A stretch of DNA of 64,000 nt from Octopus vulgaris (taxonomy: Eukaryota). Both the position numbers and the translations under genes were made by a program. The stretch's first letter is position 1. The number at the start of each line of letters is the position of its first letter. The stretch lies in contig OX597830.1 in NCBI GenBank assembly GCA_951406725.2, positions 42,656,001-42,720,000 of the forward strand. The letters are read 5' to 3'. Below the pieces are notes generated by a model, which saw nothing but the letters and a program-made list of their open reading frames with translations, was not told the origin of the DNA and searched no databases. Positions 409-62,218 of this stretch are shown piece after piece.

Positions 409-869
409 AAGGCATTTCATTCATTGCTCTCATGTTTTCACAAGTCCATTGCCCTAGACTGGTACTTTATACATTAATCCCAGAAAGTAGAGTAGACTTT
501 AGCCAGATCTGAATTCAAAATGCAGAAAGCTGACATAAATACTGAAATGTCTTTTAGCTGACATTCTAATAACCATACCAATTCACTGCCTAATGTGAAT
601 GGCAAATGAGGAATGGACAAAGTAGAAAATAAAATGTTAAGTAATGTAACCATTTTCACATAACATGTACTCTAAATAGTGAGCTAAAAATTATTTAACA
701 TTGAATGTAAAAAAATTTTCCAAATGTCTCTCCTGAAGGGCTCTATCAAAAATGGTGGATATTTTGGGTCCTTCCATCACTATAAATCCAATTTGGCTTC
801 TCACTGAATTGAATCTTGCCAACACAAAACACACAAGTATGATTAAATCCAGGTGATCATGTCTCTCAC

Positions 870-1096
870 CTCTAAAAGTGCACTTTTCTCCACCTCTGCT
901 TTCCTCAGGTTGTCTTCCAAGACAAATGTTTTGGAATGGATTACCAACATATCATTCTCATCGTCTAACATTTCAACAAAGTCATCAGCTCGAGGTTTCT
1001 TGAATTGAAAAGGTGTACTTGCTCCTTTTACTTGCCCTGTTGATGCAACATAACAGAACTGGTAAAACTCCCCATCATCTCCTGGCATTTGATGTG
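870..1096 (-). CDS. TAX1BP1: TAX1BP1/CALCOCO-family protein, coding exon 2 (end of SKICH domain, CLIR, start of coiled coil)
   Basis: Acceptor tttttgcAG at 1098-1097; donor GAG|GTGAGA at 869. Translates (S)HQMPGDDGEFYQFCYVASTGQVKGASTPFQFKKPRADDFVEMLDDENDMLVIHSKTFVLEDNLRKAEVEKSALLE. DDGEFYQFCYV...GASTPFQF is the SKICH C-terminal signature. The phase-1 junction fits the upstream exon. The symbol is a family-level call. Confidence 0.93.
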
Positions 1097-1120
1097 CTGC
1101 AAAAAGATGTAAAAAAAAAG

Positions 1121-1151
<31 letters not shown>

Positions 1152-1164
1152 CAAAGTTAATCCA

Positions 1165-1365
1165 AACATGAAAACACAAAGAGAAATCACAACAACGCGA
1201 GGACATGGAACAAGTATAGTGTTATTGGACGCTCAGAAAAGGAAAGAAAGAAGGAGGATTTAACGTTTCGAGTGTAGCTCTTCGTCAGAAACATAGGAAG
1301 AGGAAAGATCCAAGGAAGGGTAGACGGAGGAAAAAAAAATCGCCAACGATACACACGCAGTCACA
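1165..1365 (-). mobile_element. Penelope-like terminal remnant carrying a hammerhead-like core
   Basis: Purine-skewed repeat. The minus strand reads CTGACGA-AGAGCTACACTC-GAAACGTTA at 1288-1261. A more decayed relative lies at about 46060-46190. Confidence 0.5.
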
Positions 1366-2512: not shown

Positions 2513-3468
2513 TAGTGCTTATATATAAATGTATATAATATATATATAAATATATATAATATAAATAATATATAAATACATGCATATATACATACATATA
2601 TGTACATACCTACATATATATGTATATATACATGCATATATGGGCACAGGACATAAAAAAAAAACGCTGAACATGAGAAAACGAAAGCATAAAAACAAAA
2701 ACATAGAAAATGAACTTTTTTTCAAACAACAAAAAAAAACAGAGAAACGAGAAATGCAACATAAAGAATATTCTCCTTCATCAGCTGTCCTTGTTTCATC
2801 TATTCCGCGTTTCAAAGGCACATGAACACACCCACACATATATATATATATATCTATATATGCACACATATGCGAAATATGCATTCATATATGTGTGCAT
2901 GTGTGTGAAAGCACATATTATGCACATATATACACACATACACGTATAACAGATATATTATACATCTCTGTCTACACACACACAAAATATGTGTATTATA
3001 AATGTATACATTAAGCTAAATTAAAGTCTGTCTCAAGCTTACAGGCTTATTAGGTTAGTGCCTTTCTCAATTTCTGAGGCATTTAAGCAAATGAAATTAC
3101 GAAACTATGTTACAAAACTGAATGCAAGACCAGCTGCTGCTTGTATTCGTTTCAGCTGAGTCAGTTGGAACCACATGAAATGAAGTGCCCTGCTCAATGA
3201 TGCAACAGGATGCATGTCTTAGAATCGAACCCACAAAACTAACAACCGTAAGTCCAACATTCCAGTCATTAGGCTACGTGCCTCCATGTACACATCTAAA
3301 ATAATATACATGCATGTTACTACTCTTTGTGGTACAGGTCATCTGAAGGAAGAGATAAAGTTAATAAAATTTGAACTCAAATCATTGAATGACAAAATTA
3401 CATATCATAAGACATTGTTAGTATTTAGTGTGTAAGTATGTAGTTACAACCAATGTTTTGAAACTTAC

Positions 3469-3757
3469 ATGGAAAGAGTATGTTGCCTTCAAATTCTTTT
3501 CCTGCTTTATAATCCTTGAGAGGGGTACACCACTCATAATAGATGTAGTTGTGTGAGGAAATCCAGCCAACTTTATATAAACCAACCCAATCTCTGTTTG
3601 ATGGCTGATAGTCAGATGTGATTGTATAATGACATTCAATATGGGCATCAGTGGGATAAGTTTCGGGCATAGAAGGGAATACGACAACAGCAAAATCTGA
3701 ATGCCTGAAACTAATTTCACCAGTAGCCATGTTGATTTCAGTTCTGCCAGTACTCAT
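3469..3757 (-). CDS. TAX1BP1: TAX1BP1/CALCOCO-family protein, coding exon 1 (SKICH domain N-terminal part)
   Basis: Acceptor ttttacAG at 3761-3760, ATG at 3757 (alternative ATG at 3730), donor CCA T|GTAAG at 3468. Translates MSTGRTEINMATGEISFRHSDFAVVVFPSMPETYPTDAHIECHYTITSDYQPSNRDWVGLYKVGWISSHNYIYYEW...EGNILFP with the SKICH DWVG-Y-VGW motif. The acceptor implies a non-coding exon further upstream. Confidence 0.92.
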
Positions 3758-4105
3758 AACTGTAAAATTAAAAGAAAGAAAAAAGAATAAATACATTATA
3801 TATGTATACATAGTGGTTGGTGTTAAGAAGGGCATCCAGCTGTAGAAACTTTGCCAGATCAGATTGAGCCTGGTGCAGCCTTCTGGCTCACCAGTCCTCA
3901 GTCAAACCATCCAACCCATGCCAGCATTTTAGATACTATTGGATTTTACCTCATTCTGAAAAAAAATTTTTTATATACACACACGCTGATATATGACCTA
4001 TGGTGGACTCCTTATTCGCATAATCACTGAACCTGGAGCTTAACTTACCTGACACCTTTGGGTCTTACTGACACCATTACCTCTCATAACCTATATATAT
4101 ATATA

Positions 4106-37822: not shown

Positions 37823-38549
37823 TACACACAGACACAAACATACATACACACACACACACACATACACGATATGCTTCTTTCAGTTTCCGTCTGCCAAATC
37901 CACTGGCAAGGTTTTGGAGAAGACAATTGTCCCAGGGGCTACGCAGTGGGACTGAACGCGGAAACATGTGATTGGAAGGCAAACCTCTTACTACACAGCT
38001 ACGCTTACAACTATTTCAAAAAGAAAAAAAATATTCATTGGCAGCATCAGCATCTGTGATCAAAACAATGGACAATTTACTTTAATATTTTTTATGTTCG
38101 TTTTGTTCATGTTCATCTAATTGATTGGACTTTCTGTGCTTTAGTAAAACACTCCCTTTTATTTATCAATAGTTTATATCAGCAGGTTATACACATCTAA
38201 CGACGCGATAATCGTACAAACTAAATAATAATAATTTGATGTAACAGCTGGGTTACTTCGCTCGCCTGACCCCGTTCTCTGACCTCTTCTCCTTAGCGCT
38301 GCAGTGCTGTGGTCTGGATTCACTTTTTACCACATGCTCAGGTGTACGTCCAACCACATTCTCAAATGCACTACCACCTACTCCCGTCATCACCACCACC
38401 GCACTGTACGCCCTGACATCAATGTCCTTGCAAACAGTCTCAAGGATATCGTCTGCTACAGGCTTTTGTCAACGCCATTTAACTTGGTATCGTTCGCCAC
38501 TCAACGCACACTACATACTCAACAATCTCCATTGACTTATGCTACGAAC

Positions 38550-38590
38550 ATGGCTCCGAAGAAAGTTTGTATCATAGGATCAGGAAATTG
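38550..38590 (+). CDS. GPD1: Glycerol-3-phosphate dehydrogenase [NAD+], exon 1 from the canonical start
   Basis: AACATGG start; MAPKKVCIIGSGN+TG with the Rossmann GSGNWG motif split inside the Trp codon; donor GTTCGT at 38591. The CDS may instead start at ATG 38334 (see findings). Confidence 0.93.
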
Positions 38591-38619
38591 GTTCGTTGAT
38601 TTTTTTAAAAATATGTTTA

Positions 38620-39945: not shown

Positions 39946-41352
39946 CAGGGTTTTCAAAAAGTCACCCCGCAGTATTTTATTGCAAAATAAATATTTATGA
40001 GATGATATAAGACCACAAAAGAATATATTAGACTTTACAAGACTTTAAAAAACTTTATAAGAAGTGTTGAAAGTGTCGTCCTTCATTTACAATACATAAG
40101 TCGACTCTTCTACACGTTTTGAAATATATCTTGGTGCATCTGACACGATATGGACCGTGTGAAGGTTATGATTGCATGGTATAAGGATGATAATATTTTT
40201 ATGTATTTCTAGTATTGGTGTATATTCTGTTATAGGGGCTGGTTGATTTTCTAATTCTAAATATGCTTTATTGGAGGTCTGTCTGTTCGTGCAGTTGCTC
40301 AGAATGTCTCTTATGAGGTTAGAGAATATCATTAATGGTTTTCTGGCGATTCTTGTACTCTGATGCTTTACTTGCTCGCCAGAAAAAAAAATGTCTGGCG
40401 GTGTTAAACCAGGTGATCTTGGTGAAGTCTCTTCGAAATAATCCGTTCACCGTAAAACTCTTGAAGTAGCGCCATGGTGATGCACGAAGTATGCGCTGTA
40501 GCTTCATCTTGCTGAAAGTATACAGTATTAATTTCACTTTCGGTGAGTTGGCCTACAAATGGATAGACAATATTTGAGCAATATCTCTAGGTGTTGATGG
40601 TGTCTTAAAAAAATATCAGTCCCACAATACGCTTTCTCGAAATTGCTATCCATACTCCAACTTTTCCGATATGCAGAGATTGCTCGTGTTGCGATAACCT
40701 TGTCTTATGCGAATTTATGGGTCCTGACAGATGAAACCAAGCTTCATCGGTGTAAAAACACCCATCCAGCACTTCTATGCCTTTTTCGGCAACAAAGTTT
40801 TGGAACCAATGACAATAATGAAGCCTTTTAGCATGATCCATAGTCTTCAATTCTTGAATGGCCAGCACTTTGTATGGATAGAAATTTAATTTCTTTTTTA
40901 CTGCTGCGTGAGCACTTCCTAGGCTGATTTCCGTTTCCTGTGACAATTTGCGTAAGGTCTTTGACGGGCTTTCCAATAGTTCATCAAAAATATTGGAGAG
41001 TGTTTCGTTTGAAAGAACAGTAGACCTACTGCTTCTTGCTGCATCTTCCATTGAGCCTGTGTTTCTAAATTTCCTTATCAAATCCTACACAGTGTCACGA
41101 TGTGGAACAAAAGTATTTGGAAAAGTTTCACTGAACTTCTGTTTCACAGTATCTGGGTATTTGTTTCCATGCTCAAAATACCCATTCACCTAAAAATGTA
41201 TGTTCTTCAATGGTTAGCATGTCAACATGCTGAAGGGTACACAGTGACTGAGTGACAAACGCTGATACCCGGCCCCATCATGCAGTGATAGCCAAGTTGT
41301 GCGTGTGCAGGATGAAAAAAATTCACTGCAGAAAGTCTTTATGAACACCCTG
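39946..41352 (-). mobile_element. Full-span decayed Tc1/mariner-superfamily element (DUF4817-type HTH, PRSP(D)LTP family)
   Basis: TA|CAGGGTTTTCAAAAAGTC...GTCTTTATGAACACCCTG|TA. Transposase remnant from ATG 41220 (MLTIEEH...LIRKFRNTGS...FYTDEAWFHLSG...YFQQDEATAHTS...PRSPGLTPPD...EGRHFQHFL*) with stops and frameshifts. Confidence 0.92.
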
Positions 41353-47574: not shown

Positions 47575-48620
47575 TAATAATAACAATGAAATTATTGTGT
47601 ATGGTGCTCAGTTGCACTACAGCTTATCAAAGGTGCATATATATAGTACATAGTATTATGTACAAAAGTCAGGAAAGTGAACAGAGTATGAGTCATGGTA
47701 TACGTGTGTGCATGTGTATGGAGTTGGGGTGGGATATCAGGTGTAGTATTGGTGAATTTCAGGAAGCATGGCGGTTTTAAAGGATGCAGTGTCTCAGCAT
47801 CTAACAACTGATGCATGTAGTTTGTTCCGTGCTTCAGCAACTCTGAGTATGAAAAAATGTTTCCGAAAGTCATGGGAGCTGTGCTGTTTATTGACTTTGT
47901 AGGCATGCCCACATCTGTTACACACATGGAATTCAAAAAGGTGCTCAAGGTGGTTGTTGGCACGATGGTTAATAATTTTGTGGGTGTTTACCAAATCACT
48001 TGCTAGATGTTGGAGCTTCAGTGTATCTATGCCCAGGGAAGCAAGGCATTCAGAGTATGGTAGATGCCTGATGGAGGGTAATTGCTTGGTTGCATGTCCC
48101 TGAACAGTTTCCAGGAGGTCAATGTCCTGAGTAAGATAGGGGTTCCAGACTAGTGATGCAAATTCCAAGTGTAGCCACACCATAGCCATATACAACCTTA
48201 AATAGATAGCTGGAGGGTGGCTGACAAAGGTCTTGCTGAGTGATGCTAAGACACTCTCAGCCTTCTTGTCAATTTTAGAGATGTGCTTTGTCCAGTGCAA
48301 ATTGCTGTTGACAGTAATGCCCAGGTCACGTTCACTAGAAGACATCTTAATATTAGTGTTGTGGAGGGAGTATGTGAATGTTGGGTTTTTCCTCCTAAAA
48401 TGCATGGTGGTATACTTGTCCACAGCCAGCTTGAGTTGCCAGTCTGTGATCCATTGCTGCATTGTGTCTAGATCTGATTGCAGGAATGATCTATAGTGTT
48501 CAGGATCTGTCCTTTTTATCTCAAGGTACAGCTTGATATCATTTACATATTTCAGCTCTGTGGCATTTTTTAAGTTGGCATCTATGTCATTAATGTATGC
48601 AACAAACAGAAGGAGGCCAA
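47575..48620 (-). mobile_element. CR1-clade LINE 3' remnant (RT C-terminus plus tail)
   Basis: LLFVAYINDI...KYVNDIKL (decayed YADD)...ERDLGI...HLEFASLVWNPY...GHAYK...RKHFF..RV; (TAT)n tail. Tail-only copies at about 57470 and 59370-59482. Confidence 0.92.
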
Positions 48621-48976
48621 ATAAAGAGAATTGATTACATTTTCATGCTCCACTTACAATAAATGTTTTGTTCACTCTTGACATATAAAGCCTGCTTTAT
48701 TTGTGATTTTTAGAAACCGTAATTAATACTGTGTCACACTTTCCACCCTATTTACTAAAGACCTTTCTATGCGGTTGCTTGATCTGCTAGAAATAACACC
48801 AAATATTAACATTGACTAATGTAGACTTACACAACACTGAGAAGAACAGGCTGGTCATAGTTGGAATGAATGCTTTTGATCATACACCTGATCAATCAAG
48901 ACTGATCTTGAGTTTAACAAGAACATAGGATGCTGTTTAAACATATGGTATTTAATTTATGACACAATATACCACC

Positions 48977-51251: not shown

Positions 51252-52410
51252 CATCGTTTAACGTCCGTTTTCCATGCTAGCATGGGTTAGACGGTTCGAC
51301 TGGGGTCTGGGAAGCCAGGAGGCTGCACCAGGCTCCAGTCTGATTTGGCAGTGTTTCTACAGCTGGATGCCCCTCCTAATGCCAACCACTCCGTGTGTGT
51401 AGTGGGTGCTTTTTACTTGCCACTCGCACAGGGACCAGAGGAGGCTGGCAAACGGCCACGGTCGGTTGGTGCTTTTTGCATGTCACCAGCATGGACGCCA
51501 GTCAAGGCGGCGCTGGCATCGGCCACATTCGGATGGTGCTTTTTACATGCCACCGGCACAGGTATCACAACTACAATTTCCATTGATTTTAATTTTGATG
51601 TAGATGTACTTGACTCAATAGGTCTCCTCAAGTACAGCAGGTCACCCTACGATCCAAGGTTAGCACAGCAGGCCGTCCTGCAAGCCATGAACTCACTTCA
51701 TTTGTTGGGCCTTCGCAGTCACGGCATATCTCAGAGGTCTTGGTCTTTTGCCATAGGCTCTGTGAGGCTCAACATTCGAAGGTCATGCTTGACCACCTCA
51801 TCCCTTGTCTTCCTGGGTCTACCTCTACCCCAGATTCCTTCAACAGTTTGAGAGTGGCACTTCCTCACACATCTCTCCTCATCCATCTGTAGTACATGAC
51901 CATACCAACACAAACGTCTCTCCTGCACACCACATCCAGTACTTCTTATGTCCAACATTTCTCTCAGGGCGCTTACACTCTGTCGTGCATGCATACTGAC
52001 TTTACACATCCAGCGGATCATGCTAGCTTCATTTCTTTCGAGCCTACACATATCCTCCACAGTCATGGCCCATTTTTCACTGTCGTGAAGCATGGCAGTT
52101 TGCATACATGCGTCGTACAATCTACCTTTCACTCTGAGCGAGAGAGCCTTTGTTGCCAGTAGGGGAAGAAGCTTTCTAAATTTTGCCCAGGCTATTCTTA
52201 TTCACCCCTACTACTAACTTGGTCACCTAGGTAGCGGAAACTATCAACTACTTCTAGTTTCTTCCCCAGGAGTGTGATGAAATCTGTTTACTGAGTATCT
52301 GTGGTGTCTATTGCCCCTGTGCATCTGCTGCACATGAAAGCCATCTTCTCAGTTAATTTTCCTTTGATGTTGCTGCACCTCTTATGTGTCCATAGCTTAC
52401 ACTGGGTATA
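51252..52410 (-). mobile_element. RTE-clade LINE remnant (ORF C-terminus plus tail)
   Basis: ORF 52132-51731 KGRLYDAC...RRLCWYGHVLQM...GRGRPRKT matches the RTE C-terminal motifs; upstream EVVDSFRYLG; tail GGACGTTAAACGATG. Confidence 0.92.
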
Positions 52411-59708: not shown

Positions 59709-59889
59709 GGGTACAGCCATTGCTAAAATTACAGGCAAAAATGTGATTGAGCGCACAAATTTATTTGAACGTACTATAAACATGTACATGTATGAAGAAC
59801 TATATGAGGGCCAGAAACTCTCCGAAATTTTCAATACTACACATATAAACATTAAATACCTTCCTGGAATCAAAATACCTGAGAATGTG
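59709..59889 (+). CDS. GPD1: Glycerol-3-phosphate dehydrogenase [NAD+], exon 2
   Basis: Acceptor tttttcAG; (W)GTAIAKITGKNVIERTNLFERTINMYMYEELYEGQKLSEIFNTTHINIKYLPGIKIPENV; donor GTAAGA. Phase matches exon 1. Confidence 0.96.
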
Positions 59890-62077: not shown

Positions 62078-62218
62078 GTTGCTATCCCTGATGTTATCAA
62101 AGCCACTGAAAATGCTGATATTTTAATATTTGTTTTACCACACCAATTTGTTCAAGGAATATGCAGTACCATTAAAGGAACTGTAAAACCTGGAGCAGTA
62201 GCTATATCTTTAATCAAA
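62078..62218 (+). CDS. GPD1: Glycerol-3-phosphate dehydrogenase [NAD+], exon 3
   Basis: Acceptor ttttctAG; VAIPDVIKATENADILIFVLPHQFVQGICSTIKGTVKPGAVAISLIK with the ADILIFV-PHQF and SLIK(G) motifs; donor GTAAAT. Confidence 0.96.

What the first reader, a model, noticed from the sequence alone, without database searches (positions are those of the whole stretch)
38334..38590. GPD1 has an in-frame 72-aa N-terminal extension resembling a mitochondrial presequence
Seen: the frame is open from 38283 to the exon-1 donor. ATG 38334 (weak context CACATGC) gives MLRCTSNHILKCTTTYSRHHHHRTVRPDINVLANSLKDIVCYRLLSTPFNLVSFATQRTLHTQQSPLTYATN before the canonical MAPKK (strong context AACATGG). The extension has 6 Arg and 2 Lys against 2 Asp, no acidic residue in the first 27 positions, many Ser/Thr, and cleavage-like RLLST and RTLHT motifs. 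Established: animal GPD1 is the cytosolic arm of the glycerophosphate shuttle, which is very active in squid mantle muscle, and yeast Gpd2 has a mitochondrial targeting extension. Inference: alternative start or TSS usage may yield both cytosolic and mitochondrial NAD-linked GPD from one gene. Out-of-frame ATGs (38366, 38422, 38539) favour alternative TSSs over simple leaky scanning.
Basis: partly seen in the sequence, partly recalled or inferred. Interest (0 to 1): 0.72.

Follow-up and report, generated by a model that had tools for sequence, protein, structure and literature searches.

The report
Octopus GPD1 carries hidden mitochondrial tag

Summary
ATG 38334 opens 72 codons in frame with the canonical GPD1 start at 38550, and spliced contigs carry it into exon 2. 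Public Octopus protein models already include it, labelled 'cytoplasmic'.

Alone it proves little: such an ORF arises in 1.4-2.7% of leader shuffles, and its presequence-like composition is no different from stop-free shuffles. Comparison is stronger. All 9 complete cephalopod orthologue sequences carry a 64-105 aa extension with a shared L-x3-LK-x2-VC helix, in frame across five spacer lengths. The octopus's second GPD1 paralogue has none. Acid-poor extensions also occur in abalone, other snails, a ribbon worm, crayfish, cockroach, stick insect and beetles.

Best reading (0.6): a cleavable mitochondrial presequence made from a weak upstream AUG, with a short cytosolic form from the strong internal AUG. 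The three out-of-frame ATGs all have weak contexts, so they do not favour alternative TSSs over leaky scanning. Translation, import, cleavage and compartment are untested. It works like yeast Gpd2 and Pichia GpdA; ten literature searches showed no animal case. The scan had not noted this before.

The parts
37875..38333 (+). 5' leader covered by contigs of guessed-RNA runs, collinear with exon 1; true TSS not mapped
   Evidence: Contig 5' ends at 37875, 37894, 38008, 38234, 38222 and 38327
38239..38244 (+). out-of-frame start-stop element (ATG TAA), weak context
38334..38549 (+). 72-codon in-frame N-terminal extension from a weak-context ATG; candidate mitochondrial presequence
38421..38456 (+). 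residues 30-41, the motif conserved in cephalopod orthologues (invariant L, L, K, V, C); modelled as helix 29-44 at low confidence
38366..38416 (+). out-of-frame uORF, 16 aa, weak context
38422..38535 (+). out-of-frame uORF, 37 aa, weak context, ends 14 nt before the canonical ATG
38539..38577 (+). out-of-frame uORF, 12 aa, weak context, overlaps the canonical ATG
38550..38590 (+). canonical GPD1 start (strong context) and coding part of exon 1 with the GxGxxG start; phase-2 donor after 38590
59709..59889 (+). GPD1 exon 2 (3' end approximate)
   Evidence: tblastn 100%; acceptor; spliced loose end
62078..62218 (+). GPD1 exon 3 (ends approximate); the remaining exons lie past the window end, to about window+81594

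Best explanation
This octopus GPD1 gene has a transcribed, conserved, in-frame 72-codon extension that is likely translated from a weak upstream AUG as a cleavable mitochondrial presequence, while ribosomes that scan past it would start at the strong AUG 38550 and make the ordinary cytosolic enzyme. Shown: the ORF, its presence in spliced transcripts, frame conservation across cephalopods, weak upstream and strong internal start contexts, an intact catalytic core, and a second extension-less paralogue. Inferred: translation from 38334, import by TOM/TIM23 and cleavage near the core, and leaky scanning as the main route to the short form (an internal TSS is not excluded). Most speculative: the imported enzyme sits in the matrix and couples matrix NADH/NAD+ to the DHAP/glycerol-3-phosphate pair, as a redox valve under low oxygen, the role I recall being proposed for yeast Gpd2.
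For: Transcription: 2 of 4 runs (X18, X20) have contigs from 38222 or 38327 through exon 1 whose loose end is exon 2. In one search, 4 of 4 runs have a contig collinear from 37875-38234 to 38591 that runs on with 180-2419 letters not in the stretch (letters not shown). Conservation: 9 of 9 complete proteins of the cephalopod clade (P0002-4, P0007, P0010, P0011, P0122-4) carry a 64-105 aa extension; the tenth, P0073, is truncated inside the core. The motif stays in frame over spacers of 31, 32, 29, 44 and 52 codons; rough chance for neutral DNA 3e-4 to 3e-5, assuming independence. Octopus-Sepia and octopus-P0011 extension scores exceed shuffles (P=0.002 each). The one variant shown in the extension (38372 T>C, 6 of 7 runs with cover) is synonymous. 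AlphaFold: pLDDT <50 for exactly residues 1-72 and a confident core after. Wider pattern: 24 of 120 listed homologues have a 37-105 aa extension; 21 of them (congeners P0003, P0004, P0018 dropped) pool to 36 D+E in 1426 residues (2.5% against 6.1% expected, P=2e-10; P=0.002 at a 4% expectation). Cockroach and stick-insect extensions are homologous (score 95, 0 of 1000 shuffles). The internal Met has a purine at -3 in 19 of 21. No 19-residue hydrophobic stretch above 1.44 Kyte-Doolittle, and no PTS2 in cephalopods. Precedent: Pichia GpdA-GFP is mitochondrial plus cytosolic (PMC8124512, section 2.2 read).
Against: No ribosome profiling, CAGE, proteomics or localisation was available, and no TargetP or MitoFates run. 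The octopus extension's composition matches shuffles; the four cephalopod lineages pooled are acid-poor only weakly (9 of 324; P=0.005 at 6.1%, 0.16 at 4%) and not enriched in K+R (P=0.76). Argonauta's extension has only 2 Arg and net +1 in its first 30 residues. The conserved motif lies mid-extension, contains Asp and Cys, and is not the most amphipathic window in most species; conserved motifs are unusual in presequences (own knowledge). A nominally unrelated pair (octopus-Dendroctonus) also reached P=0.002 among 52 comparisons. Extensions of 30 or more codons arise in 8.5-12.6% of leader shuffles, not far below 24 of 120. A strong internal context is also expected if the leader is untranslated. 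All runs were contigs, only guessed to be RNA or of unrecorded kind. No animal carrier for DHAP or G3P across the inner membrane is known to me.
Confidence: 0.6

Rival explanations
1. The extension is translated and under selection, but tethers the enzyme to a membrane surface or partner (outer membrane or intermembrane space beside FAD-linked GPD2, lipid droplets, or myofibrils) through the conserved helix and Cys, rather than importing it into the matrix.
For: Invariant L, L, K, V, C with helical spacing across octopods and Sepia; a GPD2-type gene is present at G000:C23:19.57 Mb; channelling beside GPD2 needs no unknown inner-membrane carrier (inference).
Against: No transmembrane stretch; the motif is confined to cephalopods, while extensions elsewhere share only composition.
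Confidence: 0.2
2. The region is a regulatory 5' leader. Conservation acts on RNA or promoter elements or uORFs, only the short cytosolic protein is made, and annotation pipelines simply chose the longest ORF.
For: Weak context at 38334, strong at 38550; four weak out-of-frame ATGs; composition equal to shuffles; an RNA hairpin overlaps the motif; Haliotis discus hannai is annotated at 349 aa while congeners are 386 aa.
Against: Frame and openness kept over five different spacer lengths; the hairpin is not beyond chance (35.5% of 200 shuffles fold as well), and invariant residues extend outside its stem; whole-leader folding z = -1.15.
Confidence: 0.13
3. The two paralogues divide the work fully, as yeast Gpd1 and Gpd2 do: this gene makes essentially only the long organellar form and the C17:19.6 Mb gene supplies the cytosol.
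For: The paralogue has an in-frame stop 6 codons before its Met; every exon-1 contig that reaches the donor includes ATG 38334, in 6 of 6 such runs.
Against: The internal Met with purine at -3 and G at +4 is kept in all cephalopod lineages compared, and the upstream ATG is weak. Contigs cannot show internal starts.
Confidence: 0.07

Closest known systems
Yeast NAD-linked GPD with a mitochondrial presequence: S. cerevisiae Gpd2 and Pichia pastoris GpdA (PMC8124512, passages and section 2.2 read; Valadi et al. 2004, PMID 15210723, only the title seen in that reference list, content recalled)
   Same: Same enzyme family; N-terminal acid-poor extension; a sister gene with other targeting in S. cerevisiae; dual mitochondrial and cytosolic signal for GpdA-GFP.
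   Different: The GpdA presequence is given as 24 aa against 64-105 aa here; cephalopods keep a conserved internal motif and a retained strong internal Met; no homology between the extensions was tested; localisation is shown in yeast, not here.
Animal cytosolic GPD1/GPD1L (EC 1.1.1.8; PF01210 + PF07479; PDB 1x0v)
   Same: The core aligns over residues 72-420 (E=3e-122) with GxGxxG, both catalytic lysine motifs and the GGRN motif.
   Different: Reviews describe animal GPD1 and GPD1L as cytosolic (PMC11148179, PMC12913425; passages read). This gene belongs to a mollusc-only 'GQSFQG' clade of 41 rows and has the extension.
Dual targeting by two in-frame AUGs (yeast HTS1 and VAS1, mammalian PRDX5; recalled, not looked up)
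   Same: Upstream AUG adds a presequence; downstream AUG gives the cytosolic form.
   Different: In those cases both starts are shown experimentally; here neither use of the upstream AUG nor the route (leaky scanning or TSS choice) is shown.

Membership tests
[quoted passage not shown] | PF01210 + PF07479 domains above cut-off | tested here: met
   149 and 128 bits against cut-offs 23 and 25
[quoted passage not shown] | GxGxxG, catalytic Lys motifs, GGRN substrate motif | tested here: met
   Aligned identically to human GPD1 1x0v; residue roles are recalled
Cleavable mitochondrial presequence | N-terminal, translated from an upstream AUG present in mRNA | tested here: inconclusive
   AUG present in spliced contigs; frame conserved; translation not observed
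Cleavable mitochondrial presequence | Net positive, acid-poor, Ser/Thr-rich composition | tested here: inconclusive
   Net +6, 2 acids, but equal to shuffles for this sequence; acid depletion significant only pooled over 21 extensions
Cleavable mitochondrial presequence | Amphipathic helix near the N-terminus | tested here: inconclusive
   Best moment 0.59 in residues 1-35, P=0.13 against shuffles; helix 29-44 at pLDDT <50
Cleavable mitochondrial presequence | MPP cleavage motif (Arg at -2, -3 or -10) close to the mature domain | tested here: inconclusive
   My loose patterns hit Octopus and Sepia but not Argonauta or P0011
Cleavable mitochondrial presequence | Unstructured and separate from the mature fold; no transmembrane segment | tested here: met
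   this is necessary, not specific
Cleavable mitochondrial presequence | Drives import and is cleaved | not testable with these tools
   Needs GFP fusion, import assay or N-terminomics
Peroxisomal PTS2/PTS1-targeted GPD (yeast Gpd1 type) | R-[LVIQ]-x5-[HQ]-[LAF] near the N-terminus or an SKL-type C-terminus | tested here: not met
   No PTS2 in the six cephalopod extensions scanned; the octopus protein ends HKTR

The most novel reading that the evidence does not exclude
Many protostome animals (all coleoid cephalopods sampled, some gastropods, ribbon worms, crayfish, cockroaches, stick insects, beetles) make an unrecognised mitochondrial isoform of NAD-linked GPD1 from an upstream AUG, giving animal mitochondria an internal DHAP/glycerol-3-phosphate redox couple and implying an unknown inner-membrane route for these metabolites.
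Probability: 0.35. Interest if true: 0.75.

Novelty: new variant of a known kind. Interest (0 to 1): 0.5.

Why it matters
The glycerophosphate shuttle is taught as a cytosolic NAD enzyme (GPD1) paired with a mitochondrial FAD enzyme (GPD2). A mitochondrial NAD-linked GPD in animals would add a third arm. In the matrix it could unload NADH under low oxygen or recover G3P electrons at complex I; beside GPD2 it could channel substrates. The proteins are already in databases but named 'cytoplasmic', so the feature is hidden in plain sight, and cockroach, beetle or crayfish versions make it cheap to test.

Tried and rejected
Upstream spliced exon: 38278-38297 looks like a branch point plus acceptor, but contigs run collinear and unbroken across it in 5 runs (X1, X5, X9, X13, X18), so I rejected it. 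A short contig in X18 matching only 38559-38591 has a different leader and start residues; I read it as another organism's GPD1, not an alternative first exon.

TSS mapping: not possible from contigs. No listed holder is on record as RNA. A depth step in X13 (4.1 upstream of 38204, 89.7 downstream) and contig ends at 38222 and 38327 are weak hints only. X16 laid nothing and X17 stopped at 38510 unspliced.

dN/dS: no DNA of divergent cephalopods could be had; the metagenome pattern scan gave 0 hits, and the laid runs were near-identical.

ESM Atlas on residues 1-76: no usable hit. Profile search with the extension alignment found only the 6 known cephalopod clusters at E<1e-20, then 4 marginal hits. 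RNA hairpin over the motif: chance level. PTS2 and transmembrane anchor: absent. A third own-genome copy like Argonauta P0073: only the two C17 loci were matched.

Literature: searches (listings and abstract starts) showed no report of a mitochondrial NAD-GPD in an animal; subscription papers are mostly not held and no supplements were read. PMC4883998 passages were irrelevant; Valadi 2004 was not held. Earlier scan findings: none by words, two unrelated by sequence.

Full report
1. Observation. The frame is open from 38283. ATG 38334 encodes 72 residues (6 R, 2 K, 2 D, first acid at 28) before ATG 38550. The upstream ATG has C at -3 and +4; the canonical one has A at -3 and G at +4. The donor follows 38590, exon 2 begins at 59709, exon 3 lies near 62078-62218, and the rest of the gene is beyond the window. 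The 423-aa product matches CAI9735202.1 (Octopus vulgaris) and XP_029646793.2 (O. sinensis) exactly, both named 'cytoplasmic'. So the extension is annotated but not interpreted.

2. Is it more than chance? For this gene alone, barely. An ATG-started in-frame extension of 72 or more codons appeared in 2.7% and 1.4% of 5000 shuffles of two leader lengths. Against 2000 stop-free shuffles, none of eight composition measures was unusual (smallest P 0.11). The leader is G-poor, so all three frames are acid-poor.

3. Transcription. In one search, runs X18 and X20 have contigs starting at 38222 and 38327 whose loose end past 38591 is exon 2; X16 laid nothing and X17 was unspliced. In one search, all 4 runs have one contig collinear from 37875-38234 to 38591 that runs on for 180-2419 letters. 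No contig breaks at the acceptor-like site at 38297. These are contigs of runs guessed to be RNA or of unrecorded kind, so they show that spliced transcripts containing ATG 38334 exist, not where most transcripts start. The one variant shown in the extension, 38372 T>C, is synonymous.

4. Conservation. Extensions are present in O. bimaculoides (77 aa), Argonauta (64), Sepia pharaonis and three unnamed members of its cluster (about 82-85) and an unnamed sister sequence P0011 (about 105): 9 of 9 complete proteins in the cephalopod clade. The tenth row, P0073, lacks even the core's first exon. A motif with invariant L-x3-L-K-x2-V-C stays in frame over spacers of 31, 32, 29, 44 and 52 codons; a rough neutral expectation is 3e-4 to 3e-5, which overstates independence for the octopods. 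Octopus-Sepia and octopus-P0011 extension scores beat shuffles at P=0.002, but so did octopus-Dendroctonus among 52 comparisons. The extension evolves faster than the core: 24 of 64 against 94 of 120 identical for Octopus-Argonauta. AlphaFold gives pLDDT <50 for residues 1-72, a tentative helix at 29-44 over the motif, and a confident core.

5. Gene family context. The genome has two GPD1 loci on C17. In a tree of 122 rows (quick IQ-TREE; 14 fused, partial or mis-modelled proteins left out, among them P0003 and P0004), this gene falls in a mollusc-only clade marked by GQSFQG, and the paralogue at 19.6 Mb falls with the general animal type. The paralogue has an in-frame stop 6 codons before its Met, so a plain cytosolic GPD1 exists independently. 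A GPD2-type FAD enzyme gene is also present.

6. Beyond cephalopods. Of 120 listed homologues, 24 have a 37-105 aa extension: the cephalopods, two abalones, Babylonia, Bulinus, Tubulanus, Procambarus, Periplaneta, Bacillus rossius and ten beetle-clade proteins (one unnamed). The query itself favoured such proteins slightly, and 9-13% of shuffled leaders give 30 or more codons, so the count alone is weak. The composition is stronger: 21 extensions pool to 2.5% D+E against about 6% expected (P=2e-10; P=0.002 even at 4%), while K+R is only slightly raised. Cockroach and stick-insect extensions are clearly homologous. Most other cross-group pairs do not align, which fits fast-evolving or independently gained targeting peptides. 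Most bivalve and gastropod members of the mollusc clade are annotated without an extension.

7. How it likely works. Scanning ribosomes meet four weak AUGs from 38334 onward before the first strong one at 38550. The simplest model is that some start at 38334 and make the precursor, and many leak through to make the 351-aa cytosolic form; the 37-aa uORF ending at 38535 may modulate this. The internal Met has a purine at -3 in 19 of 21 extended proteins, as expected if it remains a start. The extension is positively charged, lacks a transmembrane segment and a PTS2, and precedes a soluble NAD enzyme, so a mitochondrial presequence is the best fit (inferred, 0.6). I commit, with less confidence, to a matrix location where it couples matrix NADH to DHAP/G3P. 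The main rival (0.2) is tethering beside GPD2 or to another surface through the conserved helix and Cys. An untranslated regulatory leader is less likely (0.13); the hairpin over the motif is chance level.

8. Comparison with what is known. The core is a member of the GPD1 family. It would work like S. cerevisiae Gpd2 and Pichia GpdA, the latter shown as mitochondrial plus cytosolic by GFP (PMC8124512). Reviews treat animal GPD1 and GPD1L as cytosolic (PMC11148179; PMC12913425; passages only). Ten searches of the open-access library showed no animal mitochondrial NAD-GPD; older biochemical and subscription literature is largely outside that library. Membership in 'mitochondrial presequence' is unproven: most defining features were inconclusive and import could not be tested.

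9. Verdict. A real, transcribed, conserved extension; a new variant of a known kind if the targeting holds. Interest 0.5, limited by the lack of any translation or localisation data and raised by its spread across protostomes.

Noticed in passing
window 843-1232 and 3425-3901, minus strand: Two exons encoding a SKICH domain (PF17751), likely a TAX1BP1/CALCOCO-like gene transcribed away from GPD1.
   Followed up: partly
G000:C17:19609626-19655176 (+): Second GPD1 paralogue of the general animal type, with the same first-intron position and no extension.
   Followed up: yes
P0073 (Argonauta hians): A second, long-branch copy in the cephalopod clade; no separate counterpart was found in this genome.
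   Followed up: partly
insect homologues, e.g. P0050, P0064, P0074, P0078, P0089, P0096, P0121: Several insect GPD1 isoforms end in SKL- or SRL-type tripeptides, and P0064 and P0074 have both an N-terminal extension and NSKL, suggesting peroxisomal as well as mitochondrial isoforms from one gene.
   Followed up: no
P0126 (Haliotis rubra isoform X2): An annotated alternative first exon replaces the GxGxxG start of the NAD-binding fold; possibly inactive or a model error.
   Followed up: no
P0003, P0004 (Octopus bimaculoides): Both models are broken in the exon-4 region relative to all homologues, probably an assembly gap.
   Followed up: no
window 47794-48642 and 51731-52201 (minus); 40605-41084 (minus): Intron 1 holds a reverse-transcriptase fragment (weak RVT_1 hit) and two ORFs that look like LINE and mariner-type transposase fragments by recall, with no Pfam hit.
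   Followed up: partly
window 38283-38297: A pyrimidine run that resembles both a TCT-type initiator and a splice acceptor (motifs recalled); not used as an acceptor in the contigs laid.
   Followed up: partly
P0137 (unnamed, 445 aa): Another GPD1 with an acid-poor extension of about 88 aa, marginal hit.
   Followed up: no
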